Notes under the pieces: generated by a model | Told to the model about the DNA's origin: nothing | The model's database searches: none | What the model saw: only the letters and a program-made list of their open reading frames with translations | Translations under genes and position numbers: made by a program | Shown here: positions 28,223 to 45,804 of the stretch, piece after piece | Position numbering within the stretch: the stretch's first letter is position 1 | How the letters are laid out: each line of letters opens with the position of its first letter | Assembly (NCBI GenBank): GCA_002415855.1 | Contig: DIAS01000162.1 | Coordinates: 3,647-67,646, forward strand | Direction: 5' to 3' | Length of the DNA stretch: 64,000 bases | Origin: Bacteroidales bacterium UBA5072 | GTDB lineage: Bacteria; Bacteroidota; Bacteroidia; Bacteroidales; UBA10428

Positions 28223-28240
28223 TTAATTAGCTTAACCACT

Positions 28241-30589: not shown

Positions 30590-31480
30590 ATGAAACAAAA
30601 CGTAAAAAATATTGCAGAGCATTATTTCATCGTATTGCTGGGCTTCTTTTCCCTGATATCGCAGTGTGCCCGGAGCGGTGAATTCCTGATCATTGACAAA
30701 GCCATTACATGGGACGAAAATGCCCAAAGTGCTTTCTATATGTTCATGCCCGATGCCACCATGCCTTCCAACTGGATGTACCCGGACGATTATTATAACG
30801 GCATGATATATACCCGTTATGAGATACTGGAAGTAGCCACCCGTATACCCTGTGGAATGCAATTCGGCATATTTCAATGGAAAGATGCCAATCACACGGT
30901 CTGCGGTGAGTTGTGCGAAAACATCAGGTGGCTGGAAAATGGCACCGGTTCGGTAGCCGAAAATGGAAGCAGTCCTTCTACCTGGTGGGAGTCATATGGT
31001 GGTGTCGATTTCTCCAAAATCAGTGATCTTCAGAGTCTGAGCCCTACAATCTGGAGCAAGGATCCAAGATCGCCCATTGCCAGGCCCGGACAGGGAGGCG
31101 ATGATGCAGGTGAAGCCTGGAGATTGCGCTATAACTGGTTCCCGATAACGGTAAGAGTCACTGTTGTGGCTGTTTCCGCAGGTTCTGCCTTCTCAGGCTG
31201 GGATTACTATATTGGAAATACGCCTCCGAATTCCGACGTATTCGAAAAATACTTACTGGTTTATCCTAACCCGGGTTCCGATGGTCTGTTCAACATTCAA
31301 ACGGACATAGAACCTCCATTTACACTGGAAGTCCTGTCAACAGATGGTAAGATACTAAAGAGCACAACAGTACAGGAAACACTGAATCCTGAACTCAGCT
31401 TGCAGGAACTGAACCAGGGGATCTATATCATCAGAGTTTTGGGTAATAACTTCACTGTTGCACGCAAGATCATCCGGTAG
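30590..31480 (+). CDS. T9SS-secreted family member P2 (minimal form: N-domain plus CTD only)
   Basis: The ATG at 30590 lies one codon inside the track's TTG start. A signal peptide is followed by the N-domain GEFLIIDKAITWDENA...MPSNWMYPDDYYNGMIYTRYEI...GIFQW...GELCE...SSPSTWW..GGVDFS...YNWFPITVRVTVVAVSAGSAFSGWDYY. The CTD follows directly: LLVYPNPGSDGLFNIQ...GIYIIRVLGNNFTVARKIIR. Confidence 0.85.
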   Translation: MKQNVKNIAEHYFIVLLGFFSLISQCARSGEFLIIDKAITWDENAQSAFYMFMPDATMPSNWMYPDDYYNGMIYTRYEILEVATRIPCGMQFGIFQWKDANHTVCGELCENIRWLENGTGSVAENGSSPSTWWESYGGVDFSKISDLQSLSPTIWSKDPRSPIARPGQGGDDAGEAWRLRYNWFPITVRVTVVAVSAGSAFSGWDYYIGNTPPNSDVFEKYLLVYPNPGSDGLFNIQTDIEPPFTLEVLSTDGKILKSTTVQETLNPELSLQELNQGIYIIRVLGNNFTVARKIIR

Positions 31481-31628
31481 CAACCAACGTTCAAAATGCT
31501 CTCACAACTGAATTTGCTGCAAACGGTTAAGTACAATTATGCATATTCCGTCAGGAATTTTAGTTGGTTTATCAATAATCTAAATCTGAGGTCCTTATTT
31601 CAGTTATTTTCGGGCAAAAATAGTTCAT

Positions 31629-34433
31629 ATGAAAACTCCTTGCAGAAGCTTTACAAAATTCCTGTTGTCCTCCATGGCGGTTCTCCTGTTATGCGTTCCC
31701 CAGGATGTAAACAGCGCCGAGTTTGTTGTTATCAACAGAATAATCTCTTACGATATCAATGCATCCAGTGGATTCTGGTCATTTGGTATGAATGCCAGCA
31801 TGCCGGCAAACTGGGCATCGCCCAATGACTATTACCACGGGACTTTTTACACCCGTTATGAAATACTGAGTGTTCCGACGAATGTTCCATGCGGGATACA
31901 AATGGGTATTTTTCAGTGGCAGGGAGCCCATAATGATTCCTGCGGTGAGTTATGCGAGAGCATACGTGGTCCGCTGGCAGGTGTCGGAGCTGTTGTTACC
32001 AACAGCAGCAGCCCATCAACCTGGTGGCGTACTGAGGGCGGAGTCGATTTTTCCCGAATGAGCTACCTTGAAAGCATGGCCATTGTCCTCTATTCGTGGG
32101 ACACAAGGTATCCGGTAGCCCAGGCGGGACAAGGTGGTGATGCTGGCGGGATAAGCTGGAACCAGCGCTTCAACTGGTTCCCGATCACCCTCAGGGTTAC
32201 GGTTGTTGCTGTATCGTCAGGTTCCACCTTTTCCGGGTGGGACAATTATATACCCAATCCTGCCCTGCAAAAGCCCACTCCTGCATATGGCATTGATTAT
32301 ATCAATGAAACCACGGACAAGGTGGTTCCCGCAACAGATGAATACGCCCTGTTTCCGACAATGTTTGGCCGAGTAAGTGGCAGCGGTCAGAAAATGACCC
32401 TGATTCCCGGACGGGATGCATACTTTCGTACAAAGGCCGGAGACGGTTTACGCCAATCCGAGATCCAGCATTTTGATGTGCCCTGCAGGCCTGCCACTCC
32501 GAAATTTATTATGGATAAGGTCAACTACCGGACAACAACTACTGTGAGCAGTGAATATGAGTATTCTGATTATTCGGATATGTCTGAGGCTGTTACCGGG
32601 AACGGCACCTATGTTTCAATCCCCGCCGGAACAACCAAGTTCTTCAGAAAGAAGGCCACAGTTACTTCCTTTAAATCAGAAATCCAGGCACTGAACGAAT
32701 CATCCAAATCAGCTATACCACATGAACTTCTTGTTTTCAATGGTGTGATTGACTATCCGAATACAACGGATACCAATGGTTTTTACTATTTCTATTATAA
32801 TGCCGACATGCCCAAAGACTGGACAACGCCTGATAATTATTACAACGGAAATTTTTATATGCGTTATGAAATTATCAGCCAGAAAACTTCTACTCCGGTT
32901 GGTATGCAATTTGGATTGTGGCAGCTTCTGCCACCAGAAACAGGAGAATTGCATGAAACCATGTCTGGAATCACAACACTGAATGGCCCCGGCAGCTATG
33001 CAACTGCCGTCAGTAGTCCAAGTTCCTGGTGGAGACTGGATGGAGGATTTGATTATACCAAGATGGATCTCACCTGGCATATGGGTATAAATCCATGGAA
33101 GTTAGATAGCTATAATGGCAACCTTCAAATCAGGCAGGAAAACGCCAGTGTGTGGGCAGAAAGAAATACATACTGGTTTCCCATGAAGGTATATGTCACC
33201 ATTGTGGCGGTTGCTTCAGGATATTCCTTTTCAGGATGGAACAACTACCTGGGTGTGAAATATCCAACCCCGGCATATACCATCAATTATACAACCGAGA
33301 AAACAAGCCAGGTGGTTCCTGCAACCGACGAGTATTCCTATTCGCCAACCATGTCTCCTGCATATCCGGGCACAGGTGCTACGATAGACCTGTTACCGGG
33401 ACAGAATGTTTATTTCCGTACAAAGGCACAGGGAAGATTCCTGACATCAGATATCCAGCGCCTGGTTGTTCCGGAAAGACCAGCGCCGGTGTATACCGTA
33501 AACTACCAGGAGAAAAAGACCAACGAACCTGTTTCGGTGAACGATGAATATTCGACCAGCCCGGACATGACAGGTGCTTACGTGGGTACAGGTTCCACAA
33601 TCACCATTACCCCGGGTACCGATCTTTATTTCAGAACCAAGGCTACAACGTCTTCTTTCCGATCTGCAATCCAGCATCTGGTTGTACCCACCGTACCAGC
33701 GCCGCCGGCTTTTACCATTAATTATGACTTGGGCACCACGAATGAAACAGCCGGGACCAACATTGCCATTTCAAATTATGCAAATTTCTCCGGCCAGATC
33801 TTTGGCACCGGGACGTTTGTGACACTTGTACCCGGACAGGATTTGTACTTTAAACAGGTTGCCACAGGTTCATCTTTTGGCAGTGATGCTTCACACCTGG
33901 TGGTTCCGGCCTGCAACTTCCTCGGCTATTCCGGTGCAGACACCGTTACGTCAAGCAAGTTCACGGTGTATGCTATTCTCACCGATCAATCTCATGTACT
34001 GACCTTGGCCGATATCCAGGTGACCAACGGAACCGCACAGAACCTGCGTACCGGTAATGTGTTCGACATTTACCCGGCATCAAAGGGTTGGGTTACAGTT
34101 GTTATACCGGCGAATTCCATCAGTGAGAACTCCTTTGCCTCCAATGAAGTACGTGCCTATTACAATGTGGTAACAGGAGTAGATGAAATTACGGACATTG
34201 ATTTCGAAGTTTTTCCCAATCCCAGCTTCGACGGCCTGGTACAAATAAGGAACAATCGGCGAAAGGACTACCAGGTATGCGTTTACAATGTGAACGGGAA
34301 CATGACAAAGACTTTTGAAGTAAATGGAGGCGGCGATCAGCTGATCGACATGCGGGCTTACCCGAAGGGGATGTACTTCCTTCAGATAAGCTCGGATAAT
34401 TACACCCGTTTGCACAAGATCATTTTACAATAA
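31629..34433 (+). CDS. T9SS-secreted family member P3: N-domain, 2 modules, second N-domain, 3 modules, Ig-like VTNG domain and CTD
   Basis: There is a signal peptide. N-domain copy 1 runs AEFVVINRIISYD...FSGWDNY and copy 2 runs HELLVFNGVIDYP...FSGWNNY. The modules are of the PTPAYGIDYINETTD..YFRTKA type. The Ig-like block is CNFLGYSGADTVTSSKFTVYAILTDQSHVLTLADIQVTNGTAQNL. The CTD is FEVFPNPSFDGLVQI...GMYFLQISSDNYTRLHKIILQ. Confidence 0.87.
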   Translation: MKTPCRSFTKFLLSSMAVLLLCVPQDVNSAEFVVINRIISYDINASSGFWSFGMNASMPANWASPNDYYHGTFYTRYEILSVPTNVPCGIQMGIFQWQGAHNDSCGELCESIRGPLAGVGAVVTNSSSPSTWWRTEGGVDFSRMSYLESMAIVLYSWDTRYPVAQAGQGGDAGGISWNQRFNWFPITLRVTVVAVSSGSTFSGWDNYIPNPALQKPTPAYGIDYINETTDKVVPATDEYALFPTMFGRVSGSGQKMTLIPGRDAYFRTKAGDGLRQSEIQHFDVPCRPATPKFIMDKVNYRTTTTVSSEYEYSDYSDMSEAVTGNGTYVSIPAGTTKFFRKKATVTSFKSEIQALNESSKSAIPHELLVFNGVIDYPNTTDTNGFYYFYYNADMPKDWTTPDNYYNGNFYMRYEIISQKTSTPVGMQFGLWQLLPPETGELHETMSGITTLNGPGSYATAVSSPSSWWRLDGGFDYTKMDLTWHMGINPWKLDSYNGNLQIRQENASVWAERNTYWFPMKVYVTIVAVASGYSFSGWNNYLGVKYPTPAYTINYTTEKTSQVVPATDEYSYSPTMSPAYPGTGATIDLLPGQNVYFRTKAQGRFLTSDIQRLVVPERPAPVYTVNYQEKKTNEPVSVNDEYSTSPDMTGAYVGTGSTITITPGTDLYFRTKATTSSFRSAIQHLVVPTVPAPPAFTINYDLGTTNETAGTNIAISNYANFSGQIFGTGTFVTLVPGQDLYFKQVATGSSFGSDASHLVVPACNFLGYSGADTVTSSKFTVYAILTDQSHVLTLADIQVTNGTAQNLRTGNVFDIYPASKGWVTVVIPANSISENSFASNEVRAYYNVVTGVDEITDIDFEVFPNPSFDGLVQIRNNRRKDYQVCVYNVNGNMTKTFEVNGGGDQLIDMRAYPKGMYFLQISSDNYTRLHKIILQ

Positions 34434-34462
34434 CCGGGTATTTTTCGACGGCGGAAACCAAT

Positions 34463-34507
34463 AAAACCTGCAATAGTAAGCACTCACTCAAATTGCAGGT
34501 TTTTTTG
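34463..34507 (+). terminator. intrinsic terminator after P3
   Basis: The 10-bp stem AACCTGCAAT/ATTGCAGGTT (34465-34474 and 34492-34501) is followed by a T7 run. Confidence 0.75.
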
Positions 34508-34538
34508 TTGGCCGGTTACCTGAATAAAAACAATTACA

Positions 34539-37500
34539 ATGAGAAAACCTGTTTACACATTACAACGGTTAATCCTGATACTTCTGTTGTTGCTGTCGAT
34601 GAGATATTCCCAGGGAAGCGAGTTTGTCCTTATGAACAGGATCATATCCTATGATGTCAATGCTTCGGACGGTTTCTGGCTTGTAATGCCTGATGTCACA
34701 ATGCCCTCAAACTGGTTTACACCCGATAATTATTATTACGGTACAATTTACAGCAGGTATGAGATAATAAGCGCTCCCACCAGTGTGCCCTGTGCCATCG
34801 GCTGGGGATTCTTCCAATACAAAAACCCCCAGCAAACCGAACTCGGTGAGCTGTGTGAGCTGGCGCCAACCCTCGCCGGTACGGGAGCGGTTGCCTACAA
34901 AACGAGCAGTCCCTCCACCTGGTGGAGGACCGACGGAGGGGTGGATTTCTCAAAAATCGCTGATATGCAGAGTATGGGGGTTATCCTTTACTCAAAGAAT
35001 CCGGGTGATGGCAACGGCTGGCCGGTTTGCAGGTCAAACAATGGAGGCGATCCGGGAGGTATTACCTGGAATGAACGATTCAACTGGTTCCCGATGACCA
35101 TACGGGTCACTGTGGTAGCAGTATCCAATGGTTCAACCTTTTCCGGCTGGGACAGGTATGTTATTGATCCTTCGCGCAGGCAGCCTAAAACTGCATACGG
35201 AATTGATTTTATCAACGAAACCACGGACAGGGTAGTTCCTTCCACCGATGAGTTTTCAATATATTCGGGCATGGCCTATGCCGTTTCGGGCACGGGACAA
35301 CGGATGCCCATCACCCCCGGGCAGGATCATAATTTCAGGACAAAGGCCGGATCGGGTCTTCTGGCATCGGAAGTACAGCATTTCCGCGCCCCCGTGAGAC
35401 CCGGAACACCTGCTTTTGTATTGGACAAGGTCAACCACCGGACTACTACCGGGGTTTCAGGTGAGTATGAATATTCCGACAATCCGGATTTTACGGGAGC
35501 CGTTACCGGTACCGGAAGCCAGGTCAATATCCCTGCAGGCACTACGATGTACTTTCGCAAAAAAGCCACTGCCATCGCGTTCCGATCAACCGTACAGGCC
35601 CTGAACGAGTCGTCGGAGCTGCCGATTGCACATGAGCTGCTGCTCATCAACGACACCATTGAGTGGCCAAATGCCACCGATACGAACGGATTTTATTATT
35701 TCTATTACAATGCCGATATGCCGGCCAACTGGATAACACCTGACGATTATCATTACGGGGAGATATTTGCCCGTTACGAGATCATCAGTGAAAAAACCGA
35801 GGAAACCGTGGGTCTCCAGACAGGATTTTGGCAGATGCTTCCCCCGGAGACGGGTGAGTTGCACGAAACCATGTCGCCGATGGCCGTAATGAACGGCACC
35901 GGATCGGTAGTTACTGTGCGCAGCAGCCCCTACCAATGGTGGAAACTTACCAGCGGTTTCGATTATACACAGATGGACCGCACCTGGCACCTGGGTATCA
36001 ATCCCTGGAAGGTTGACCCAACCGATAACAGCAGGCTTCAGATCAGGCAGGAAAATTCATCGGTTTGGGCTGAACGCAATTCCAAATGGTTCCCGATGAA
36101 AGTATATGTTACCATTGTTGCTGTGGCTGCCTACCGGGAATTCTCAGGATGGCAGCATTATGTCAATTACAGCGCCAAAAGGAAAAGAGCCATGCCATCC
36201 ATCGGCATTGACTATATAAACGAGCAAACTAACCTGGTAATCCCTGATTCCGTTGAATATGCGTACGACGCCGGAATGTCGGGAGCAAGGAACGGCAGCG
36301 GGCAGAGACTGGCACTGACCCCTGGCAATGATGTGTATTTCAGAACGAGGGCCGGCATTGGGAATTATGCTTCCGACATCCTCCACCTGGTGGTTCCTGC
36401 AAATCCCCCGGCACCCGCAGTGACAATTAATTATGCAGGCGAGACCACAGCTGTACTTACACCCGGCACGGAATGGTCAGTTAACGCAGATATGTCGGGT
36501 GCCGTATCGGGAACGAATACAGCCATCCAGGTTACACCCGGTACGCACCGCTATTTCAGAAACAAGGCAACCGCCTCTGCCTTCAGGTCGGGTATCCAGG
36601 ATCTTTATATTCCGGTCAGGCCCGCAGCACCTGAAATTTCCATAAATTTTGCCGGCAATAGCACCGCTGTCATTCCATCCACCATGGAATGGGCCTTTAA
36701 CGCTACCATGATTCCGGCAGCCCGTGGACAGGGTATTACCGTACCGGTAACTCCCTCTGTAGATATGTATTTCAGGTCAGTCGCAACAGCCTCCGCATTC
36801 CGTTCAGAGATCCAACACCTTGTTGTTCCAGCCCTTCCCGCAACACCGGCCTATGGCATCAACTTCGTGCAACAAACAACCAACATTCCGGTTTCCGCAA
36901 ATGATGAGTATGCTTTTTCAGCGGATATGTCGGGTGCGGTTGCCGGCAGCAACACAGCGGTTAACGTAACACCGGGAATTGACATGTACTTCAGGCGCAA
37001 AGCCTCGGCAACTGCATTCCGATCGCTCATACAAACATTGGATGTACCTGCAAAACCAGCATCCCCGGCATTTACCATAAATTACACGGACGGTACTACC
37101 AACGAAGCGGCCGGAACGGATATAGCCTTTTCGGGTTATGCGGATATGGCTGGTCAGGTTTTTGGAACCGGAGTACCCGTGACGCTGCAGCCGGGTCACG
37201 ACCTGTACTTCAAACAGGTTGCCGGTTCAACATCCTTTACCAGTGATATTTCATTCCTGGCAGTGCCCTTCTGCAACTTCCTCGGCTATTCGGGCGCGGA
37301 TACCGTTACATCAAGCAAGTTCACGCTCTATGCTATTCTCACCGATCAGTCCCATGTACTGACATTAGCCGATATCCAGGTGACCAACGGAACCGCACAG
37401 AATCTCAGGGCCGGAAATGTATTCGATGTTTATCCTTCGGTTAAAGGTCCGGTATCAGTTGTTATTCCTGCAAACACGATTGCCGATAATACATTTGCCT

Positions 37501-37793
37501 CGAATGAGGTAACTGTTTATTACAATGTAGCTACGGGCCTTGCGGAATATGAAAAGGACAATATCAGTATCTATCCGAATCCAAGTGATGACGGGATCAT
37601 CTTCATACAGACCAATCAAAACAGGCCTTATTTGATAGGTATATATTCCCTTGATGGTCACCTGATGAAAACCCTGGAAATGCCTGACGGAGGAACGCGA
37701 CAGATCGATCTCAGCGATTTTCAGAAAGGCATGTATTTCCTGAAAGTAAGTTTACAAAACAATAACCGTATACACAAAATAATCTTGAATTAA
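34539..37793 (+). CDS. T9SS-secreted family member P4: N-domain, 2 modules, second N-domain, 5 modules, Ig-like VTNG domain and CTD
   Basis: It has the same architecture as P3 with two extra modules. The CTD is ISIYPNPSDDGIIFIQ...GMYFLKVSLQNNNRIHKIILN. Confidence 0.87.
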   Translation: MRKPVYTLQRLILILLLLLSMRYSQGSEFVLMNRIISYDVNASDGFWLVMPDVTMPSNWFTPDNYYYGTIYSRYEIISAPTSVPCAIGWGFFQYKNPQQTELGELCELAPTLAGTGAVAYKTSSPSTWWRTDGGVDFSKIADMQSMGVILYSKNPGDGNGWPVCRSNNGGDPGGITWNERFNWFPMTIRVTVVAVSNGSTFSGWDRYVIDPSRRQPKTAYGIDFINETTDRVVPSTDEFSIYSGMAYAVSGTGQRMPITPGQDHNFRTKAGSGLLASEVQHFRAPVRPGTPAFVLDKVNHRTTTGVSGEYEYSDNPDFTGAVTGTGSQVNIPAGTTMYFRKKATAIAFRSTVQALNESSELPIAHELLLINDTIEWPNATDTNGFYYFYYNADMPANWITPDDYHYGEIFARYEIISEKTEETVGLQTGFWQMLPPETGELHETMSPMAVMNGTGSVVTVRSSPYQWWKLTSGFDYTQMDRTWHLGINPWKVDPTDNSRLQIRQENSSVWAERNSKWFPMKVYVTIVAVAAYREFSGWQHYVNYSAKRKRAMPSIGIDYINEQTNLVIPDSVEYAYDAGMSGARNGSGQRLALTPGNDVYFRTRAGIGNYASDILHLVVPANPPAPAVTINYAGETTAVLTPGTEWSVNADMSGAVSGTNTAIQVTPGTHRYFRNKATASAFRSGIQDLYIPVRPAAPEISINFAGNSTAVIPSTMEWAFNATMIPAARGQGITVPVTPSVDMYFRSVATASAFRSEIQHLVVPALPATPAYGINFVQQTTNIPVSANDEYAFSADMSGAVAGSNTAVNVTPGIDMYFRRKASATAFRSLIQTLDVPAKPASPAFTINYTDGTTNEAAGTDIAFSGYADMAGQVFGTGVPVTLQPGHDLYFKQVAGSTSFTSDISFLAVPFCNFLGYSGADTVTSSKFTLYAILTDQSHVLTLADIQVTNGTAQNLRAGNVFDVYPSVKGPVSVVIPANTIADNTFASNEVTVYYNVATGLAEYEKDNISIYPNPSDDGIIFIQTNQNRPYLIGIYSLDGHLMKTLEMPDGGTRQIDLSDFQKGMYFLKVSLQNNNRIHKIILN

Positions 37794-37810
37794 CTGCCAC
37801 AATGCATTCC

Positions 37811-37851
37811 AGATCCTGCAGCTCATGACCATCCTGACTGCAGGATTTTTC
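37811..37851 (+). terminator. intrinsic terminator after P4
   Basis: The stem ATCCTGCAG/CTGCAGGAT (37812-37820 and 37838-37846) is followed by TTTTT. Confidence 0.7.
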
Positions 37852-37948
37852 ATTTCGGTAAATCATTAAAAATCTTTCCTGGTTATCCTTTTCATAAAAA
37901 AAATCAGGGCCTTCATCAAAAATAAAATATCAAAAAAACTTATTTAAA

Positions 37949-37956
37949 TACTTTTG
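37949..37956 (+). promoter_or_regulatory. candidate -7 box (TACTTTTG) for P5
   Basis: It matches TAnnTTTG and ends 72 nt upstream of the ATG at 38029. Confidence 0.4.
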
Positions 37957-38028
37957 TTAACCATGGCATAATCTGCATTGCATATTATGTTGTCATCAAA
38001 AGTATGAAACCTGAAAACTATATGCTTT

Positions 38029-40323
38029 ATGAAACCCCAATTTACACTTTACAGAAAATTCCTTTGCATCCTGTTTCTGGGGATTTTCCCGCTGTTCATT
38101 TATAACGTAAAAAGCGCAGAATTTGCGATCATCAACGGCACTTATTATTATCCATCCAGTGCCAATGCCTTTTACTGTCATGCTTCTCCTCCTTACGCCA
38201 ACTATCCATCTACAAACTGGCTTTCGCCCAATGATTTCTGGAACGGCACATTCTATGCCTATTATGAAGTAATCGATATACCTACTAACGAACCTTTCGC
38301 CATGCAGTTGGGAATTTTTCAATATTACCCCAATGCGGCAAACTGGGATTACCAGAATTTCTATGAGACATGTTCGCTGGTTTTTCCTCAGCTTCAGGGA
38401 GCAGGCTCATATGCTGAGGTAAATTGCGGCTCACCGGCCAACTGGTGGCAGCATCCAAACGGGGCAGTGGATTTTACCAGGGTGTATGACTTTGAAAGCG
38501 TTGGTCCGGTAATGTATAGCCGTACAGCCGGTGCCTATGGAATTTTGTACCCGCCGGATGCTGCTGCATGGGCCGTGCGTGCGAATTATTTCCCATGCAC
38601 CATCCGGGTAATCGTGGTTGCGGTTTCTGCCGGATCACAGTTTTCAGGATGGGCCAATTACATCAACGGCGGTGGCGGAGGCGGTGGTTGTACACCTGTG
38701 CAACAGGCCACGCCAACCTATGCAATCAATTTTGCCACTGAAAGAACCAACAAGGTCGTTCCAACTACAGACGAGTATTCTTACAATTCCAACATGTCAG
38801 GTGCAGTAAGCGGCACCGGGTCCACCCTTTTGCTTACGCCCGGTCAGGATGTATATTTCCGTACCAAGGCCAGTGGTGATTGTTATCTGGCTTCCAACAT
38901 TCAGCATCTTGATGTACCCACCCGGCCTGCAGGCACTCCTTCTTATTCTATTGATTATTACAACGAACGAACCAATGAGACTGTGAGTTCCACTGTCGCC
39001 TATTCAACAACTCCCAATTTTACCTCTCCGGTGAGCGGTACCGGTGCAACGGTTAACTTAACACCCGGACAAGACCTGTACTTCTGGGTGAAAGAAACCT
39101 CCAGCACCTTTGCTTCTGACGTTTATCATCTTCCGGTTCCTGCCCGTCAGCAAACACCTGCAATAACGGTTGATTTTAACAACGAGGTCACCTCAGCCGT
39201 TTCATCTGCGCAGGAATGGTCTACCAGCGCTTCCATGACTTCTCCAACCACAGGTACCAATGCCGCATTACCGGTCTCACCCGGTACGAACCTTTATTTC
39301 CGGACAAAGGCGACAGCAAGTGCATTCTTATCTGCTGTGCAAACCCTGAACGTACCTGCCCGTCCCGCAACTCCGACTTACGGAATCGATTATGCAACGG
39401 AAAAAACATCACAGGCTGTTCCTGCAACAGATGATTATTCTGTACATTCCGATATGTCATCCGCCTCAGCCGGAACCGGAGCTGCTATAACACTGACTCC
39501 CGGCACGGACCTGTATTTCAGAACCAGGAACAGTGCCAGTTCCTTCCGGTCAGCAACTCAGCACCTGACAGTTGCCGCACGACCTGCAACACCATCATTC
39601 CATATCGATTATGGCAATGAAACCACCTCAGAAACAGTAGGTGGCACAATTGAGTATGCTGCCACCGCAGATATGACATCACCAGCGTCAGGTACAGGAG
39701 TAAAACTTCCCCTTACACCGGGTGAGGACCTCTATTTCAGGGTAAAATCAACCGGATCATCATTCGCCAGCCAGAATTACCAGCTGGACGTACCGGCACG
39801 ACCAACCCTGGAATACACAGGGGAGGACACCGTAACCTCCGCAACCATTACCATGCATGCCTTACTGGATGCCGGCATGACAGGATTCGACCTCAATGAT
39901 TTGTCGGTTACCAATGGCATCGCCCAGAATTTAAGGGCCGCAAATTATTTCGACGTCATCGGGCAGAACAAGGGTGATGTCACAGTAATCATTCCGGTTA
40001 ATAAATTTGGTGGAGCAAGCTTTGCTTCCAATGAAGTGGTTGTTTATTACAATAAATCAGCTACCGGGATATCGGAAGAAAATGAGGATGGTTTTATTGT
40101 CTATCCCAATCCGAATGGCAGCGGTATCCTGTATATCCGTGCAAGACAGGTTACCCCCTATTCCATTGAAGTTTTTTCAGCTGACGGTAATCTGGTCAAA
40201 ACTGTCCTCATGGACAAGGGAGAAGAACAACCCCTTGACCTGAAGGAACTGACAAAAGGCATATACTTCCTGAAATTTCAAACAAAAGAAAGTCATTCGG
40301 TGGTAAAGGTTGTCCTGAAATAG
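38029..40323 (+). CDS. T9SS-secreted family member P5: N-domain, Gly7 linker, 5 modules, Ig-like VTNG domain and CTD
   Basis: There is a signal peptide. The N-domain runs AEFAIINGTYYYP...FSGWANY and is followed by GGGGGGGC. The modules are ATPTYAINFATERTNK...YFRTKASGDCYLASNIQHL and four relatives. The CTD is FIVYPNPNGSGILYI...GIYFLKFQTKESHSVVKVVLK. Confidence 0.87.
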   Translation: MKPQFTLYRKFLCILFLGIFPLFIYNVKSAEFAIINGTYYYPSSANAFYCHASPPYANYPSTNWLSPNDFWNGTFYAYYEVIDIPTNEPFAMQLGIFQYYPNAANWDYQNFYETCSLVFPQLQGAGSYAEVNCGSPANWWQHPNGAVDFTRVYDFESVGPVMYSRTAGAYGILYPPDAAAWAVRANYFPCTIRVIVVAVSAGSQFSGWANYINGGGGGGGCTPVQQATPTYAINFATERTNKVVPTTDEYSYNSNMSGAVSGTGSTLLLTPGQDVYFRTKASGDCYLASNIQHLDVPTRPAGTPSYSIDYYNERTNETVSSTVAYSTTPNFTSPVSGTGATVNLTPGQDLYFWVKETSSTFASDVYHLPVPARQQTPAITVDFNNEVTSAVSSAQEWSTSASMTSPTTGTNAALPVSPGTNLYFRTKATASAFLSAVQTLNVPARPATPTYGIDYATEKTSQAVPATDDYSVHSDMSSASAGTGAAITLTPGTDLYFRTRNSASSFRSATQHLTVAARPATPSFHIDYGNETTSETVGGTIEYAATADMTSPASGTGVKLPLTPGEDLYFRVKSTGSSFASQNYQLDVPARPTLEYTGEDTVTSATITMHALLDAGMTGFDLNDLSVTNGIAQNLRAANYFDVIGQNKGDVTVIIPVNKFGGASFASNEVVVYYNKSATGISEENEDGFIVYPNPNGSGILYIRARQVTPYSIEVFSADGNLVKTVLMDKGEEQPLDLKELTKGIYFLKFQTKESHSVVKVVLK

Positions 40324-40375
40324 GGCCTGTCTGCCATTGTGACGATCTCAAAGATCTGTAAAATTCTGAAAATTT

Positions 40376-40413
40376 GACAACTCAAGACACCTGTGGTGTC
40401 TTGAGTTGTCTTT
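40376..40413 (+). terminator. strong hairpin (probable terminator) after P5
   Basis: The 16-bp perfect stem GACAACTCAAGACACC/GGTGTCTTGAGTTGTC has a 3-nt loop and is followed by TTT. Confidence 0.65.
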
Positions 40414-40440
40414 ACCGCAGTAACCCTAAACCAATAACCC

Positions 40441-43400
40441 ATGAAGACATTGTATGCCCATTGCAGGCTTATCCTTGTTTTTGTCAGTGTCTTATTCATG
40501 TTGTTCTCGCACAAAGCCCTGGGAGGTGAGTTCGTGATCATGAACCAGACCTTCACCTATACAGTAAATGCCAATGCCTTCGCCTGTCATGTTTCTCCAC
40601 CGTTTGACAATTCAATTCCAGCAAACTGGTTATCTCCGGAGAATTACTGGACCGGAAGTATTCATGCCTATTATGAAGTTATCAGCGTTCCCACAAGTGA
40701 ACCCTTCGGGTTTCAGATGGGTATTTTTCAATATATGCCCAGCCAGGCGCAATGGGATGGGGTTAACTTTTATGAAACCTGTTCCTATGCCGTCCCCGAA
40801 CTCCGGGGTGTCGGAGATGTGTTGGAATATAACTACGGCTCCCCCTCAAGCTGGTGGCAACACTGGAATGGCGCTGTCGATTTCTCCAGGGTCTACGATT
40901 TTGAAAGTGTAGGACCAGTCATTTACAGTCTTGTACCAGGAGCCAGTGGTGCCTTGAGCACCACTGCCGGAGGAGGTGATGATGCAGCCTGGGCGATTCG
41001 CTATAACTGGTTTCCCTGTACCATACGGGTTATTATCGTTGCAGTGTCAGCAGGATCACAGTTTTCAGGTTGGGCAAATTATGTTAACGGAGGTCCCTGT
41101 ACACCTGTCGCACAGGCAACTCCATCCTATGCGATTGACTATGCCAATGAAACCACGACCTCGGTTGTTCCGAGCACGGATGAGTATTCCGGCAATGCCG
41201 ACATGTCGGGAGCTGTTAGCGGAACCGGACAAAAGCTGGCCCTTACTCCCGGTCAGACGGTTTATTTCCGGACCAAACAACTGGATGAATGTCACCTTGC
41301 CTCTAACATACAGACGCTTGTTGTGCCCCAGCGGCCATCTGCGCCATCCTTTTCAGTTGATTATATTTATGAAACCACTGTGGAGGCAGTGAGCAGTAAC
41401 GTGGAATATTCCACCAGCCCCGGTATGACTTCCACCTCAACCGGAACTGGAGCGACTGTTGCGCTAACACCCGGTCAGGATATGTACTTCAGGATAAAAG
41501 CAACCGGATCTGCATTTGCCAGTCTGAATTTCGTTCTGGATGTGCCGGAAAGGCCTGCTGCACCGGCCGGATATACCATTGATTTTCTCAACGAAAGAAC
41601 CGTGGAGAACGTGGGTTCCAACATAGCCTATTCTACTTCCCCGGTTTATTTAAATCCCGTAAGTGGTTCGGATATTACGGTGTCCGTAACTCCAGGTCAG
41701 GATCTGTACTTTTGGGTGAAGGGTTCTGCCTCGGTATTCAAATCCGCCACCTACCGGCTGATCGTTCCGGCCCGGCCGGCAGCTCCATCCATTGCCATTA
41801 ACTTCATCACCGAGGTCACCTCGGTCATTTCATCAACCCAGGAATGGTCCACCAGCGCCGTCATGGCATTACCCGTTGCAGGTACCAACTCCGGGGTACC
41901 TGTAACTCCGGGAATTGACCTGTATATCAGGAACCTTGCAACTGTGAATGCATTCAAATCCTCCATACAAACCCTTGATGTTCCTGATCGTCCGGCTGCC
42001 CCGGCATACCAGATCAACTACACTACGGAAAGGACTGTGCAGGTTGTCCCGTCTTCTGATGAATACTCGCTCAATCCCGACATGTCCGCGGCTTCATCGG
42101 GTTCAGGTGTTGCTCTGACCTTGACGCCGGGCACAGATGTTTATTTCCGGACCAAAGCATCTCTGGGTTCTTTCATTTCCGGTATTCAGCACCTGACTGT
42201 TGGCCTTCGGCCTGCATCTCCCGAATTTCAGATCAATTATGTGAATGAAACCACCGCGGAAAACGTAAGCAATACTATTGAATATTCTACTGCAGCGAAT
42301 ATGGCTTCCGCCATGACCGGAACCGGAATTCCTGTGACCCTGACACCCGGACAAGACATGTATTTCAGGGTGAAAGCCTCAGCTACTGCATTTGCCAGTC
42401 TCAATTTCGTTCTGGATGTGCCGGAAAGGCCTGCTGCACCAGCCGGGTATACAGTTGATTTCATCAACGAAACGACGGTGGAAAATGTGAGTACTGCCCT
42501 TGCTTATTCCACATCCCCTGCTTATTTGAATCCTTTAAGCGGAACCGGCAACAAGGTCCCGGTGACACCCGGTCAGGACCTGTATTTCTGGATAAAAGGG
42601 TCAATAGGTGTATTCAATTCTTCCACGTTTCGGCTGGCTGTGCCGAACCGGCCTGCTGCGCCTGCCATAGCCATTAACTTCACCACCGAAGTCACCTCGG
42701 CTATTTCATCAACCCAGGAATGGTCCACCAATCCTTCTATGGTTTCAGCCTTTCCGGGTACCAATACAGGGATACCGGTCACCCCGGGTATGGACCTGTA
42801 TATAAGGAACATGGCCACTGCGGGAACATTCAGATCTTCAGTACAAACCCTTGATGTTCCTGACCGGCCATCGGTCCCGGCCTACCAGATCAATTATGCC
42901 ACGGAAAGGACCTCCCAGCTTATTCCTGCAGCAGATGAATATTCTTATTATTCCGACATGTCCTTTGCTACTTCCGGAACCGGCGTGGCATTGTCCCTTA
43001 TTCCTGGTACGGATGTATATTTCAGAACGAAGGCCTCAATCAACTCCTTCATTTCCGGCATACAGCACCTGACGGTAGGTCTGCGGCCCGCATCTCCGGA
43101 GTTTCATATCAACTATGTCAATGAAACGACGTCGGAAAACATAAACAATACCATTGAATATTCTCCTGCAGCGGATATGGCTTCCGCCCTCACCGGAACC
43201 GGAGTGCCTGTGACGCTGACACCCGGCCAGATCATGTATTTCAGGGTGAAAGCTACCGCATCTTCCTTTGCCAGCCTCAACCATCTATTGAATGTACCAG
43301 CACGACCGGCGGCTCCTCCTGGATACACCATTGATTATATCAATGAAAGAACCATAGAAGAGGTCAACACTGACATAACTTTTTCAACCTCCCCGACATA

Positions 43401-44703
43401 CTCAAACCCGGTGAGCGGTACCGGTTCAAGGGTCACCGTAACGCCAGGTCAGGACCTGTATTTCTGGATAAAAGGTTCAACAGGCGTATTCAACTCTTCC
43501 ACCTTCCGGCTGATTGTGCCGAACCGTCCGGTTGCTCCCGCAGTAACCATTGATTTTACCCGGGAAGTTACCTCGACAATTTCATCAGCCGAGGAATGGT
43601 CAACCAGTCCAACCCTGGCTACGGCGATAACAGGCACCAATACCGGCATACCGGTTACCCCGGGTACCGATCTTTATATCAGGAACCTGGCGACAGCCAA
43701 TGCTTTCAAGTCTTTGACCCAAAATCTGAATGTCCCTGACCGGCCGGCTACCCCGAGCTACCAGATCAATTACGTCACGGAGAAAACGTCAAAAGCCGTT
43801 CCCATAACGGATGAATACTCCAGGTACCCGGATATGTCATCTGCTTCATCGGGAACAGGTATTGCTTTGTCCCTTACGCCAGGTACAGATCTGTTTTTCA
43901 GGACCAAAGCTTCTGCGAGTTCTTTCATTTCTGAAATTCAGTATCTGTCTGTCGGCTTCCGTCCTGCTCCGCCAGCGTTCCAGATCAACTTCGAAAACAT
44001 AACCACCCTTGAAAACGTGAATAACACTATTGAGTATTCTTCCTCATCCGATATGGCATCTGCCACAACAGGCAAGGGCGTTCCTGTCAGCCTGTCACCC
44101 GGTCATGATATGTATTTCAGGATCAAAGCAACCGGATCTGCCTTTGCCAGCCTGAACTTTCCTTTGTTGGTACCGGCTGCTCCAATACTCGTTTATACCG
44201 GGAATGACACCACAACATCCGGAACAATAACCGTGCAGGCAGTATTAGAGGAAACCATGACCGGTTTTGATCTGACGGATTTATCGGTCATCAATGGTAC
44301 CGCACAAAACATCCGGGAAAATAACACATTCGACGTTATTGCCGGGGAAAGGGGCCTCGTCACGGTGAACATTCTCAGCAATGCATTTGGAGGAGCCAGT
44401 TTCCCTTCGAATGCCGTAACGGTATTTTACAACAAGAACGCAACAGGAATTTCCCTTTCTGAAGAAAGTCAGTTTATTGTATATCCAAATCCCAGCCACG
44501 ACGGGATCATACACATTAAGGCCGAAAACGGGCTGCCTTTTACAGTTGAAGTCTACTCGAATGAGGGCGCCTTGGTGAAAATCTGGGACATGAATGGAGG
44601 GAAAGACCAAATCATCAACCTGCAGGCACTGGCTAAGGGAATCTACTTCCTTAAGATCAATGCCCGTGGAAAAACTTTTATAAAAAAGGCAGTACTGGAG
44701 TAA
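40441..44703 (+). CDS. T9SS-secreted family member P6: N-domain, 14 modules, Ig-like domain and CTD
   Basis: There is a signal peptide. The N-domain runs GEFVIMNQTFTYT...FSGWANY. I counted 14 ~73-aa modules by eye. The CTD is FIVYPNPSHDGIIHI...GIYFLKINARGKTFIKKAVLE. Confidence 0.87.
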   Translation: MKTLYAHCRLILVFVSVLFMLFSHKALGGEFVIMNQTFTYTVNANAFACHVSPPFDNSIPANWLSPENYWTGSIHAYYEVISVPTSEPFGFQMGIFQYMPSQAQWDGVNFYETCSYAVPELRGVGDVLEYNYGSPSSWWQHWNGAVDFSRVYDFESVGPVIYSLVPGASGALSTTAGGGDDAAWAIRYNWFPCTIRVIIVAVSAGSQFSGWANYVNGGPCTPVAQATPSYAIDYANETTTSVVPSTDEYSGNADMSGAVSGTGQKLALTPGQTVYFRTKQLDECHLASNIQTLVVPQRPSAPSFSVDYIYETTVEAVSSNVEYSTSPGMTSTSTGTGATVALTPGQDMYFRIKATGSAFASLNFVLDVPERPAAPAGYTIDFLNERTVENVGSNIAYSTSPVYLNPVSGSDITVSVTPGQDLYFWVKGSASVFKSATYRLIVPARPAAPSIAINFITEVTSVISSTQEWSTSAVMALPVAGTNSGVPVTPGIDLYIRNLATVNAFKSSIQTLDVPDRPAAPAYQINYTTERTVQVVPSSDEYSLNPDMSAASSGSGVALTLTPGTDVYFRTKASLGSFISGIQHLTVGLRPASPEFQINYVNETTAENVSNTIEYSTAANMASAMTGTGIPVTLTPGQDMYFRVKASATAFASLNFVLDVPERPAAPAGYTVDFINETTVENVSTALAYSTSPAYLNPLSGTGNKVPVTPGQDLYFWIKGSIGVFNSSTFRLAVPNRPAAPAIAINFTTEVTSAISSTQEWSTNPSMVSAFPGTNTGIPVTPGMDLYIRNMATAGTFRSSVQTLDVPDRPSVPAYQINYATERTSQLIPAADEYSYYSDMSFATSGTGVALSLIPGTDVYFRTKASINSFISGIQHLTVGLRPASPEFHINYVNETTSENINNTIEYSPAADMASALTGTGVPVTLTPGQIMYFRVKATASSFASLNHLLNVPARPAAPPGYTIDYINERTIEEVNTDITFSTSPTYSNPVSGTGSRVTVTPGQDLYFWIKGSTGVFNSSTFRLIVPNRPVAPAVTIDFTREVTSTISSAEEWSTSPTLATAITGTNTGIPVTPGTDLYIRNLATANAFKSLTQNLNVPDRPATPSYQINYVTEKTSKAVPITDEYSRYPDMSSASSGTGIALSLTPGTDLFFRTKASASSFISEIQYLSVGFRPAPPAFQINFENITTLENVNNTIEYSSSSDMASATTGKGVPVSLSPGHDMYFRIKATGSAFASLNFPLLVPAAPILVYTGNDTTTSGTITVQAVLEETMTGFDLTDLSVINGTAQNIRENNTFDVIAGERGLVTVNILSNAFGGASFPSNAVTVFYNKNATGISLSEESQFIVYPNPSHDGIIHIKAENGLPFTVEVYSNEGALVKIWDMNGGKDQIINLQALAKGIYFLKINARGKTFIKKAVLE
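41527..44154 (+). repeat. higher-order coding tandem repeat: 3 copies of an 876-bp unit (4 modules, 292 codons each)
   Basis: AATTTCGTTCTGGATGTGCCGGAAAGGCCTGCTGCACC occurs at 41527 and again at 42403, an offset of exactly 876 bp. The third copy starts at 43279. The four module subtypes recur in the same order in each copy. Confidence 0.85.
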
Positions 44704-45731: not shown

Positions 45732-45804
45732 TTTAAGAATTTAGGGTTAGAGAATCATAAAATTCATGCAGATCATTGTGCGCTGAAGCGGTGCGTGGTG
45801 CACA

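What the first reader, a model, noticed from the sequence alone, without database searches (positions are those of the whole stretch)
30590..44703. Tandem array of five paralogous T9SS-cargo genes, plus a sixth inverted copy at 20773..23049, built from domain types I cannot assign
About 16.4 kb of coding sequence, a quarter of the window, is devoted to one protein family. P2-P6 lie head-to-tail on the + strand and P1 lies on the - strand about 7.5 kb away.

Every member has a signal peptide, a ~180-aa N-domain and a Por/T9SS C-terminal sorting domain. Five of the six also carry 4-14 copies of a ~73-aa Pro-bounded module and an Ig-like 'D(I/L)xVTNG.AQN(L/I)R' domain just before the CTD.

Member sizes are 296, 758, 764, 934, 1084 and 1420 aa, so copy number has changed repeatedly. 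Several genes end in their own strong hairpin.

The family sits inside a polysaccharide biosynthesis/export locus rather than among housekeeping genes. Neither the N-domain nor the module matches a family I can name from memory. This may therefore be an undescribed surface-protein system functionally tied to the glycan made by the flanking genes.
Basis: partly seen in the sequence, partly recalled or inferred. Interest (0 to 1): 0.9.

Follow-up and report, generated by a model that had tools for sequence, protein, structure and literature searches.

The report
Secreted surface-protein family in polysaccharide locus
Six related genes in an uncultured Bacteroidales genome encode secreted surface proteins built from two protein domains that match no described family, and their relatives almost always sit inside the same polysaccharide-making gene cluster, so they are probably a protein partner of that sugar coat.

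Summary
Six paralogs (P1 to P6) share a signal peptide, a roughly 180-aa N-terminal head (8 copies) and a type-A T9SS sorting domain. Five also carry ~74-aa modules (35 in total: 4, 5, 7, 5, 14) and a weakly Big_12-like Ig domain.

Neither the head nor the module matches Pfam, NCBIfam, PDB sequences or PDB/BFVD folds, although both AlphaFold models are confident (pLDDT about 90). The head looks like a generic beta-sandwich or jelly-roll.

The family is real and fairly large. The head profile finds 743 clusters (50% identity) in 1.84 billion proteins. The head–modules–Ig–CTD layout recurs in dozens of them, often as tandem arrays, and all named sources are uncultured Bacteroidales.

All eleven loci carrying a head-bearing member, the window included, hold polysaccharide genes. 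Nine of them, with heads only 31–46% identical in the distant ones, hold orthologs of window glycan genes. The only locus outside a glycan cluster encodes a modules-only relative with a different head.

Best reading: these are surface-anchored stalk proteins that present a lectin-like head and act as matrix or adhesin partners of the locus's exopolysaccharide. The mechanism is inferred, not shown.

This is a new variant of a known kind and of moderate interest.

The parts
20773..23049 (-). P1, 758 aa: signal peptide, N-domain, PKD_6 (aa 203-280), 4 modules (aa 292-585), Ig-like domain (aa 586-680), T9SS type-A CTD (aa 684-758)
   Evidence: It occupies the same position (next to a SAM methyltransferase, the sugar cassette and glycosyltransferases) as the single family gene in L019.
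30590..31480 (+). P2, 296 aa: signal peptide, N-domain and CTD only, with no stalk
   Evidence: (P0001 is this protein). Orthologs with the same N-CTD layout are P0002 to P0007.
31629..34433 (+). P3, 934 aa: N, 2 modules, N, 3 modules, Ig, CTD
   Evidence: The N-M-M-N-...-Ig-CTD subtype recurs in many other metagenomes.
34539..37793 (+). P4, 1084 aa: N, 2 modules, N, 5 modules, Ig, CTD
38029..40323 (+). P5, 764 aa: N, 5 modules, Ig, CTD
   Evidence: Query.
40441..44703 (+). P6, 1420 aa: N, 14 modules arranged as a four-module super-repeat a(bdca)x3 b, Ig, CTD
19877..20641 (-). SAM-dependent methyltransferase MT1, directly downstream of P1 on the same strand
   Evidence: Pfam. 48% identical to MT2 and 53% to the methyltransferase beside the family gene in L019.
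29661..30422 (-). SAM-dependent methyltransferase MT2, divergent from P2
   Evidence: Pfam. 74% identical to the methyltransferases beside the arrays in L006 and L018.
15565..19806 (+). Nucleotide-sugar cassette: NAD epimerase/dehydratase, RmlC-like isomerase, C-methyltransferase, nucleotidyltransferase, PIG-L deacetylase
   Evidence: Pfam. Epimerase, RmlC-like, C-methyltransferase and nucleotidyltransferase are syntenic with family genes in L010, L011, L019, L022 and L023. The PIG-L ortholog was seen only in L019.
23244..29674 (+). GT4 glycosyltransferase, He_PIG+LamG+CTD cargo (24657-26804), Wzy-like membrane protein with no family hit (26996-28222), and Wzx-like flippase (28241-29674)
   Evidence: Wzx and Wzy-like orthologs lie next to family genes in L006, L008, L010, L019 and L021-L023.
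44721..46725 (-). Acyltransferase_3 and a GT2 glycosyltransferase immediately downstream of P6
   Evidence: Orthologs of this GT2 lie close to the family genes in L007, L010, L011, L019 and L021-L023.
47146..63903 (+). Remainder of the polysaccharide locus: GT1, hexapeptide transferase, GT2 (on the - strand), PL14+fn3+LamG+CTD lyase (50997-53966), WecG, two WecA-like genes, Wza, Wzc, UDP-sugar dehydrogenase, UDP-GlcNAc 2-epimerase
34452..34514 (+). Inverted repeat (23-nt arms, 83% complementary) after P3
37813..37846 (+). 9-bp perfect inverted repeat followed by a T-run, after P4
40376..40410 (+). Perfect 16-bp stem with a 3-nt loop, after P5

Best explanation
[quoted passage not shown] Each is exported with a Sec signal peptide and carried across the outer membrane by its type-A C-terminal domain. 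By analogy with studied T9SS cargo, the CTD is then removed and the protein is linked by its C-terminus to a surface glycolipid.

That orientation places the Ig-like domain nearest the cell. A stalk of 0 to 14 modules of about 74 aa extends outward, and the ~180-aa beta-sandwich head sits at the distal tip.

The family is an extracellular protein component of the Wzx/Wzy/Wza-Wzc exopolysaccharide system that surrounds it. Most likely the heads are lectin-like and bind that polysaccharide, or a glycan on neighbouring cells, so that the proteins hold and organise the coat or matrix at several distances from the cell. The co-encoded PL14 lyase would trim the polymer.

Shown here: the domain anatomy, the T9SS signal, the absence of any match to a known family, the breadth of the family, and the conserved gene neighbourhood. 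Inferred: surface anchoring, the orientation of the protein, and glycan binding.
For: **Anatomy and sorting signal.**

**Head fold.** The head folds confidently (pLDDT 90.5) into a roughly nine-strand beta-sandwich. Its best, weak structural neighbours are jelly-roll capsids and a CBM65 module.

**Position of the head.** It follows the signal peptide directly. The mature end is x-E-F, with E2 nearly invariant across 45 diverse members.

**Choice of anchor.** The same head is paired with T9SS CTDs in Bacteroidota and with MYXO-CTERM tails in P0017 and P0032. This is typical of domains displayed outside the cell.

**Domain partners.** In other proteins the head is fused to FG-GAP, LamG, CBM6, GDSL esterase, He_PIG and BACON domains.

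**Family size and tandem arrays.** The head profile finds 743 clusters at E<=1e-3. The head–modules–Ig–CTD layout and tandem arrays recur.

**Conserved neighbourhood.** Family genes sit near orthologs of the window's GT2, Wzx, Wzy-like and epimerase/RmlC-like/C-methyltransferase genes in L010, L011, L019 and L021-L023. Partial sets occur in L006, L007, L008 and L018. L020 is a different glycan locus with its own lyase.

**Export genes and lyase.** Wza, Wzc and a PL14 lyase are in the window.

**Head-only homolog.** P0018 lies in a SusC/D locus beside two PL14 T9SS lyases.

**Anchoring precedent.** PMC4560394, PMC8545088 and PMC7468200.

**Precedent for matrix proteins plus a lyase inside an exopolysaccharide cluster.** PMC11451748 and PMC11637428.
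Against: - No carbohydrate-binding or lectin family is matched by sequence or by fold. TM-scores are at most 0.5, and there is no Pfam hit.
- hhalign shows no relation of the head to the LamG or PL14 domains of the same locus.
- Glycan binding is not tested, and neighbourhood conservation cannot say what the protein does.
- Head-only homologs in L014 (Myxococcota) and L015 have no glycan neighbours.
- The modules-only relative in the 6.9-Mb genome (L016) is outside any glycan locus.
- No T9SS machinery gene lies in the window, so secretion is inferred from the CTD alone.
Confidence: 0.5

Rival explanations
1. General adhesins for external ligands. The heads bind something outside the cell's own coat, such as plant or algal polymers, mineral surfaces or other cells. 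The genes sit in the polysaccharide locus only because surface structures are co-regulated or inherited together as one surface island.
For: - The tip-stalk-anchor architecture is that of adhesins.
- The paralogs are old and diverse, with heads 30-59% identical. That would suit several ligands.
- The head-only homolog P0018 lies in a polysaccharide-utilisation locus rather than a biosynthesis locus.
- The modules-only relative in L016 is not in a glycan locus.
Against: - The neighbourhood is conserved down to 31-46% head identity and through rearranged gene orders. The family gene usually lies close to the same GT2.
- The methyltransferase paralogs were duplicated together with family genes. 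This argues for more than passive linkage.
Confidence: 0.18
2. Glycoprotein coat. The family is the substrate rather than the binder. The flanking glycosyltransferases, Wzx and the unassigned Wzy-like membrane protein build and transfer a glycan onto the Ser/Thr-rich modules. The result would be a glycosylated S-layer-like coat, as in the T9SS-secreted S-layer glycoproteins of Tannerella forsythia (own knowledge).
For: - Ser plus Thr make up 19.4% of residues.
- One D-T-[V/T] sequon is conserved at the start of the Ig-like domain in all five stalked paralogs.
- The 408-aa membrane protein has no family assignment, so a transferase role is not excluded.
- A GT2 and a methyltransferase are close to family genes.
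Against: - The Bacteroidota O-glycosylation sequon D[ST][AILMTV] is depleted, not enriched: 7 sites observed against about 18 expected from shuffles.
- Wza and Wzc point to a high-molecular-weight exported polymer.
- No oligosaccharyltransferase-type domain is detected.
Confidence: 0.15
3. Undescribed carbohydrate-active enzyme. The head is a small jelly-roll catalytic domain (lyase, hydrolase, epimerase or esterase-like) that processes the exported polymer, and the stalk positions it.
For: - Charged residues are strongly conserved across 45 diverse heads: E78 is invariant, and E2 and R47 are nearly invariant.
- Jelly-roll folds host several lyase and hydrolase families (own knowledge).
- The head co-occurs with CBM6, LamG and GDSL domains, and with PL14 lyases in loci.
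Against: - Foldseek shows no real similarity to any lyase or hydrolase. A GH16 laminarinase scores a TM of 0.22.
- Two heads occur in one polypeptide, and there are six paralogs. That is more usual for binding modules.
- The locus already has a dedicated PL14 lyase.
Confidence: 0.12
4. Anchor glycan. The locus makes the glycolipid to which T9SS cargo are covalently attached, an equivalent of A-LPS. The cargo genes are co-located with the synthesis genes for their own anchor.
For: - Nine CTD-bearing proteins are encoded in 64 kb around the glycan genes.
- T9SS cargo are attached to A-LPS through a dedicated linking sugar in P. gingivalis (PMC7468200, PMC8545088).
Against: - Wza and Wzc indicate capsule or exopolysaccharide export rather than LPS O-antigen.
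- No O-antigen ligase is detected in the window.
- A lyase and O-acetylation genes (MBOAT and AlgX-like in L019, L022, L023) fit a secreted polymer.
Confidence: 0.05

Closest known systems
Flavobacterium johnsoniae RemA and SprB (T9SS-secreted repeat-rich surface adhesins; RemA is described as a mobile cell-surface lectin)
   Same: - Both are T9SS cargo of Bacteroidota with long repetitive bodies displayed on the cell surface.
- RemA is reported as a lectin (paper title cited in PMC5445135). The interplay of RemA with polysaccharide made by the cell is from my own knowledge.
   Different: - There is no sequence or fold relationship. Pfam finds no SprB repeat or lectin domain.
- The genes here are embedded in the polysaccharide locus itself.
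- There is no evidence of gliding motility.
Vibrio cholerae biofilm matrix cluster (vps-1, rbm, vps-2: matrix proteins RbmA and RbmC/Bap1 plus the lyase RbmB)
   Same: A polysaccharide biosynthesis cluster also encodes secreted matrix proteins and a polysaccharide lyase (PMC11451748, PMC11637428). Here the family, the He_PIG/LamG cargo and a PL14 lyase lie among Wzx, Wzy, Wza and Wzc genes.
   Different: - Different phylum and different secretion route (T9SS with covalent anchoring).
- The domains are unrelated.
- The family forms tandem arrays with variable stalk length.
- This is a functional analogy only; nothing was tested.
Porphyromonas gingivalis and Tannerella forsythia T9SS cargo anchored to A-LPS (gingipains, S-layer TfsA/TfsB)
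   Same: Both have a type-A CTD (TIGR04183/PF18962) above threshold. The expected fate is CTD removal by PorU and attachment to a surface glycolipid (PMC4560394, PMC8545088, PMC7468200).
   Different: - The functional domains are unrelated.
- No protease or S-layer family is matched.
- Anchoring has not been shown for this organism.
Haft-type 'choice-of-anchor' extracellular domains (NCBIfam)
   Same: The head occurs with alternative C-terminal sorting signals: T9SS CTD in Bacteroidota and MYXO-CTERM in P0017 and P0032.
   Different: No NCBIfam choice-of-anchor model matches the three family proteins tested, P1, P2 and P5.

Membership tests
T9SS type-A CTD cargo (PF18962 / TIGR04183) | C-terminal sorting domain of about 75 aa scoring above the curated cutoff | tested here: met
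   Pfam scores are 38.5-47.2 bits against a cutoff of 27 for P2 to P6. P1 scores 22.7 in Pfam but 30.3 against a cutoff of 23 in TIGR04183.
T9SS type-A CTD cargo (PF18962 / TIGR04183) | N-terminal Sec signal peptide | tested here: met
   Read directly from the sequences. Each has basic residues, then 15-20 hydrophobic residues, ending just before the conserved E-F of the head. No signal-peptide predictor was run.
T9SS type-A CTD cargo (PF18962 / TIGR04183) | T9SS machinery (PorK/L/M/N, Sov, PorU/V) present in the same genome | not testable with these tools
   None lies in the 64-kb window and the rest of the genome is not available. Nine CTD proteins in the window make a T9SS very likely.
T9SS type-A CTD cargo (PF18962 / TIGR04183) | Secretion, CTD cleavage and glycolipid attachment | not testable with these tools
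   Needs proteomics of wild type against a T9SS mutant.
Bacterial Ig-like domain Big_12 (PF19078), for the pre-CTD domain | Pfam match above the gathering score | tested here: inconclusive
   Scores are 19.1 bits (P6) and 16.4 bits (P1) against a cutoff of 27. Several homologs carry precomputed PF19078 hits.
PKD_6 (PF19408), P1 only | Pfam match above the gathering score | tested here: met
   72.3 bits against a cutoff of 25, residues 203-280. Orthologs have one to three copies.
Carbohydrate-binding module or lectin, for the N-domain | Sequence membership in a described CBM or lectin family | tested here: not met
   No Pfam hit at E<=1 in 45 diverse heads. No NCBIfam hit. No PDB sequence hit with a 45-sequence profile.
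Carbohydrate-binding module or lectin, for the N-domain | Fold match to a solved CBM or lectin | tested here: inconclusive
   No hit at E<=1e-3. The best relevant match is CBM65 4afm (TM 0.39/0.50, prob 0.93) among many jelly-roll capsids with TM about 0.3. BFVD gives the same picture.
Carbohydrate-binding module or lectin, for the N-domain | Demonstrated glycan binding | not testable with these tools
   Needs recombinant protein and binding assays.
Jelly-roll polysaccharide lyases and glycoside hydrolases (for example PL14, GH16, concanavalin-like) | Sequence or fold similarity to a catalytic family | tested here: not met
   hhalign of the head profile against the locus's own PL14/LamG proteins gives probability below 1%. 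The GH16 structure 4crq scores a TM of 0.22.
Fibronectin type III or Ig repeats, for the 74-aa module | Sequence or fold similarity to fn3 or Ig families | tested here: not met
   - No Pfam hit.
- hhalign against the 19-fn3 protein of the window and against the family's own Ig+CTD region gives probability below 1%.
- The best Foldseek match has E 0.058 and TM 0.3-0.4, to antibody V domains.
- The SAKe designer-protein hits cover only 23 residues and are taken as spurious.
Bacteroidota general O-glycoproteins | Enrichment of the D-(S/T)-(A/I/L/V/M/T) sequon | tested here: not met
   7 sites across the six proteins against about 18 expected from shuffles. One site at the start of the Ig-like domain is conserved in all five stalked paralogs.
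Matrix proteins encoded within an exopolysaccharide locus (functional class, as in the Vibrio rbm cluster) | Encoded within the polysaccharide biosynthesis/export cluster, conserved across lineages | tested here: met
   Seen in the window and in L006, L010, L011 and L018-L023.
Matrix proteins encoded within an exopolysaccharide locus (functional class, as in the Vibrio rbm cluster) | Binds or organises the cognate polysaccharide | not testable with these tools
   Experimental.

The most novel reading that the evidence does not exclude
The head founds a new carbohydrate-recognising (or carbohydrate-active) domain family specific for an unusual exopolysaccharide containing a branched C-methyl sugar. 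The paralog array, with stalks of 0 to 14 modules, forms a length-graded protein scaffold that sets the thickness and architecture of the coat in a widespread group of uncultured sediment Bacteroidales. That would be a T9SS-based counterpart of the Vibrio matrix-protein system, built entirely from undescribed folds.
Probability: 0.25. Interest if true: 0.65.

Novelty: new variant of a known kind. Interest (0 to 1): 0.5.

Why it matters
- **Two unannotated domain families.** The head alone has at least 743 clusters at 50% identity. These proteins make up a quarter of this window and form arrays in many uncultured sediment Bacteroidales, yet public records call them only 'hypothetical' or 'T9SS sorting domain-containing'.
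- **A concrete, testable functional lead.** The conserved placement beside the same glycosyltransferase, flippase and C-methyl-sugar genes points to protein partners of an exopolysaccharide. That could explain how T9SS-bearing anaerobes build or hold their coats and aggregates.
- **Candidates for annotation.** The domains could become new Pfam or CAZy entries.
- **Limit.** The finding does not overturn any principle. Repeat-rich T9SS surface proteins and matrix proteins encoded in polysaccharide loci are both known concepts.

Tried and rejected
- **Module profile against the 5.8-billion-protein index.** It returned nothing. This is a limit of the word index, because P0009 and P0033 clearly contain modules, and the full-length P5 query later found 154 relatives.
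- **First genome scan with the 8-sequence head alignment.** A 4-sequence alignment worked but found only six loci, so the genome survey is shallow.
- **SAKe designed Kelch-like proteins.** They match only module positions 20-42, summed over the six blades of a symmetric design. I rejected them as spurious.
- **TOBE, OspG_kinase, ATP_sub_h and TcfC Pfam hits.** These are short, have no significant stretch, and are inconsistent between paralogs. Rejected.
- **Tandem Repeats Finder and the terminator/promoter consensus scans.** They gave nothing above background.
  - The Bacteroidetes -7 motif TAnnTTTG occurs upstream of P2 and P5 only. That is too weak to define transcription units.
- **LPMO-like idea.** I considered it because the domain is an N-terminal beta-sandwich directly after the signal peptide. 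I dropped it because the first mature residue varies and is not a conserved His.
- **PF27065.1.** It is listed on two homologs, but it is absent from the local Pfam copy and from the paper library, so I could not identify it.
- **The RemA paper (PMC3393505).** It is not held in the library.

Full report
**1. What is in the sequence**

- P1 lies at 20773..23049 on the minus strand.
- P2 to P6 lie head-to-tail on the plus strand from 30590 to 44703.

I built an HMM from the P6 repeats and searched all six proteins. It found 35 modules of about 74 aa, each with a per-copy E-value between 1e-18 and 1e-38: P1 4, P3 2+3, P4 2+5, P5 5, P6 14.

The regions outside the modules align into three further elements:
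- eight copies of a roughly 180-aa N-domain, with mean column identity 52% and 22 invariant positions;
- a roughly 95-aa domain just before the C-terminus in five proteins;
- a roughly 75-aa C-terminal domain in all six.

A six-frame scan of the whole window with these four HMMs finds exactly these six genes. It also finds three unrelated proteins that share only the C-terminal domain.

Each protein starts with basic residues and a hydrophobic stretch that ends just before a conserved E-F, which opens the N-domain.

The paralogs are not recent.
- Nucleotide identity between corresponding segments is 55-76%.
- Tandem Repeats Finder sees no DNA-level repeat.
- Clustering the modules shows positional orthology between paralogs. 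In P6 it shows a four-module super-repeat, a(bdca)x3 b, whose copies are 65-78% identical in protein.

Inverted repeats follow P3, P4 and P5, the last with a perfect 16-bp stem. The generic terminator scan is not above shuffled background.

**2. What the domains are**

Pfam and NCBIfam recognise the C-terminal domain as the type-A T9SS sorting domain. P2 to P6 clear both cutoffs. P1 clears only the NCBIfam one.

P1 has an additional PKD_6 domain. The pre-CTD domain gives only sub-threshold Big_12 hits, although several homologs carry that assignment.

Nothing is found for the N-domain or the module.
- Pfam at E<=0.1 on the six proteins gave nothing.
- NCBIfam gave nothing.
- Profile searches of PDB sequences gave nothing real. 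The only scoring entries are designed symmetric Kelch proteins matching 23 residues, which I regard as spurious.
- A deeper head profile of 45 diverse sequences (A5) also gave nothing against PDB sequences.
- Pfam on every one of those 45 sequences at E<=1 gave no consistent hit.

AlphaFold2 models are confident: head pLDDT 90.5 and pTM 0.86, module pLDDT 90.1. Foldseek nonetheless finds no match at E<=1e-3 in the PDB for either model, or in BFVD for the head.
- The head's best neighbours are jelly-roll capsid proteins with TM about 0.3, and one CBM65 module with TM 0.39/0.50.
- The module's best neighbours are antibody V domains with TM 0.3-0.4.

hhalign shows no relation of the head to the LamG or PL14 domains encoded in the same locus. 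It also shows no relation of the module to fn3 or to the family's own Ig+CTD region.

The safe description is therefore a beta-sandwich, jelly-roll-like head and a small beta module, neither assignable to a described family with the libraries available here.

One caveat remains. A newer Pfam accession, PF27065.1, is precomputed on two homologs. I could not identify it.

**3. How widespread the family is**

An exhaustive HMMER search of 1.84 billion representative proteins with the head profile found 743 clusters at E<=1e-3 and 347 at E<=1e-10.

I applied my four HMMs to the retrieved proteins. The head–modules–Ig–CTD layout, with 1 to 12 modules, occurs in dozens of clusters. The subtypes seen in the window also recur:
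- head plus CTD only;
- head, two modules, head, further modules;
- head followed by PKD_6.

So the window's paralog types each have orthologs elsewhere.

The head also occurs in other arrangements.
- It occurs alone in 200-300-aa proteins.
- It occurs at the N-terminus of proteins carrying FG-GAP, LamG, CBM6, Ig, GDSL esterase, He_PIG or BACON domains.
- In two proteins it occurs with MYXO-CTERM tails.

The modules can also follow a different head (P0204).

Every source name is 'hypothetical protein' or 'T9SS type A sorting domain-containing protein', and the named organisms are uncultured Bacteroidales or Bacteroidetes. The window itself is a wetland-sediment metagenome contig.

**4. Genomic context**

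The window is a complete polysaccharide locus. It contains:
- a nucleotide-sugar cassette with a C-methyltransferase;
- several glycosyltransferases;
- a Wzx-like flippase and a 408-aa membrane protein with no family hit, taken as Wzy-like;
- acyl- and methyltransferases;
- WecG and two WecA-like genes that are 76% identical;
- Wza and Wzc;
- a UDP-sugar dehydrogenase and UDP-GlcNAc 2-epimerase;
- a PL14 lyase carrying a T9SS CTD.

I obtained flanks for ten other loci that carry head-bearing family members, and for one locus that carries a modules-only relative.
- **L006 and L018** are close relatives with the same array.
- **L010, L011, L019, L021, L022 and L023** have heads only 31-46% identical where measured.
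  - The family gene or array still lies near orthologs of the window's GT2, and usually near Wzx, the Wzy-like protein and the epimerase/RmlC-like/C-methyltransferase trio.
  - Gene order differs between these loci.
- **L022** even shares the Kup-RsmE boundary.
- **L020** is a different glycan locus with UDP-sugar genes and a heparinase-type lyase.
- **L007 and L008** are short contigs but still show the GT2 or Wzx and Wzy-like genes. A third short contig, **L009**, showed no ortholog of the window's glycan genes.

Tandem arrays occur in L006, L010, L011, L018 and L021. One member in L021 has 17 modules.

Two SAM-methyltransferase paralogs (48% identical) each flank a family gene in the window, and their orthologs do the same in L006, L018 and L019.

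The exceptions are these:
- the modules-only protein in a 6.9-Mb genome, which sits among housekeeping genes;
- the head-only proteins. One lies in a SusC/D utilisation locus beside two PL14 T9SS lyases. Two lie in uninformative neighbourhoods.

**5. How it most likely works**

*Shown here:*
- the proteins have a Sec signal and a type-A T9SS signal;
- the unassigned head is always the first domain of the mature protein;
- the number of modules varies from 0 to 14 in the window and up to 17 elsewhere;
- the genes are conserved components of one type of exopolysaccharide locus.

*From established knowledge of T9SS (PMC4560394, PMC8545088, PMC7468200):* type-A cargo are translocated, lose the CTD to the PorU sortase, and are attached by the new C-terminus to an anionic LPS.

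*Inferred:* the proteins stand on the surface with the head outermost, on stalks of different lengths. The head is a glycan-recognition module for the locus's own polymer or for glycans on partners. The family would then act as the protein part of the coat or matrix, with the PL14 lyase remodelling the polymer.

The nearest functional precedents are two:
- the Vibrio cholerae matrix cluster, where matrix proteins and the lyase RbmB are encoded between the vps clusters (PMC11451748, PMC11637428);
- the T9SS lectin adhesin RemA of F. johnsoniae (cited in PMC5445135).

I give this model about 0.5.

**6. Rival explanations**

- **Adhesins for external ligands, linked to the locus only by co-regulation (0.18).**
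- **Glycoprotein substrates of the locus (0.15).** This is weakened by depletion of the Bacteroidota O-glycosylation sequon, although one conserved D-T-[V/T] site exists.
- **A new catalytic jelly-roll (0.12).** It is suggested by invariant E78 and near-invariant E2 and R47. It is weakened by the absence of any enzyme-like fold match and by two heads occurring in one chain.
- **The locus makes the T9SS anchor glycan (0.05).** This is weakened by the presence of Wza and Wzc.

**7. Novelty and verdict**

The general kind is familiar: T9SS-anchored, repeat-rich surface proteins, and matrix proteins encoded in polysaccharide clusters. What is new is threefold:
- the two building blocks match no described family available here;
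- the family is sizeable;
- its coupling to one polysaccharide-locus type in uncultured Bacteroidales is conserved and, as far as my searches show, undescribed.

I class it as a new variant of a known kind, with interest 0.5. Function remains an inference from anatomy and neighbourhood. Binding assays and a phylogenetically controlled genome survey would settle it.

Noticed in passing
window 5786-12289 (-): A 2167-aa T9SS cargo protein with about 19 fibronectin type III repeats, an N-terminal DUF4886 domain and a type-A CTD. It is unrelated to the family, and it brings the window to nine CTD-bearing proteins in 64 kb.
   Followed up: partly
window 24657-26804 (+); L006 1027-3162; L022 15265-17763; L023 13479-15968: A second conserved T9SS cargo of the locus, with four He_PIG Ig domains, LamG and a CTD. 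It recurs next to the family in distant loci, often with a GDSL-esterase+He_PIG+CTD protein.
   Followed up: partly
window 50997-53966 (+); L018 16362-19877 and 21682-end; L012 2988-9037: A PL14 polysaccharide lyase with fn3, LamG and a T9SS CTD sits inside the biosynthesis locus, and L018 has two copies. Two PL14 T9SS lyases also flank the head-only homolog P0018 in a SusC/D utilisation locus.
   Followed up: partly
window 15565-19806 (+): A conserved nucleotide-sugar cassette includes an NDP-hexose C-methyltransferase-type enzyme (Methyltransf_23 plus Methyltransf_14). This suggests a rare branched C-methyl deoxysugar in the polymer. The cassette is syntenic in L010, L011, L019, L022 and L023.
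   Followed up: partly
window 19877-20641 (-) and 29661-30422 (-): Two paralogous SAM methyltransferases (48% identical) each lie beside a family gene. Their orthologs keep that position in L006, L018 and L019, so the methyltransferase seems to have been duplicated together with the family. The substrate is unknown.
   Followed up: partly
window 55199-56419 and 56827-58044 (+): Tandem duplicate WecA/MraY-type initiating transferases (PF00953), 76% identical over 403 aa.
   Followed up: yes
window 26996-28222 (+): A 408-aa polytopic membrane protein beside the Wzx-like flippase has no Pfam or NCBIfam hit. Its orthologs travel with the family in seven other loci. I took it as Wzy-like, but a ligase or transferase role is not excluded.
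   Followed up: partly
P1 aa 593, P3 aa 771, P4 aa 921, P5 aa 600, P6 aa 1256 (start of the Ig-like domain): One D-T-[V/T] motif of the Bacteroidota O-glycosylation type is conserved at the same position in all five stalked paralogs, although the sequon is depleted overall.
   Followed up: partly
P0017 and P0032 (homologs; L014): The head domain also occurs in roughly 295-aa proteins ending in Cys-containing MYXO-CTERM tails. The same extracellular domain is therefore used with a different sorting system outside Bacteroidota.
   Followed up: partly
homologs P0191 and P0206: The precomputed Pfam accession PF27065.1 appears on two of 120 homologs. It is absent from the local Pfam copy and from the paper library. 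It may be a recent model covering one of the unassigned domains.
   Followed up: partly
window 1541-4723 (-): A 1060-aa ABC-transporter-like protein (ABCG/pigment-permease type ATPase plus permease) with a roughly 260-aa N-terminal extension.
   Followed up: no
L019 17652-21476; L022 2580-5152; L023 801-3391; L006 4637-5806: Related loci carry MBOAT, and all except L006 also carry AlgX-like genes. These are alginate-type O-acetylation genes, where the window has an Acyl_transf_3 gene (44721-45731). The polymer is therefore probably O-acylated.
   Followed up: no
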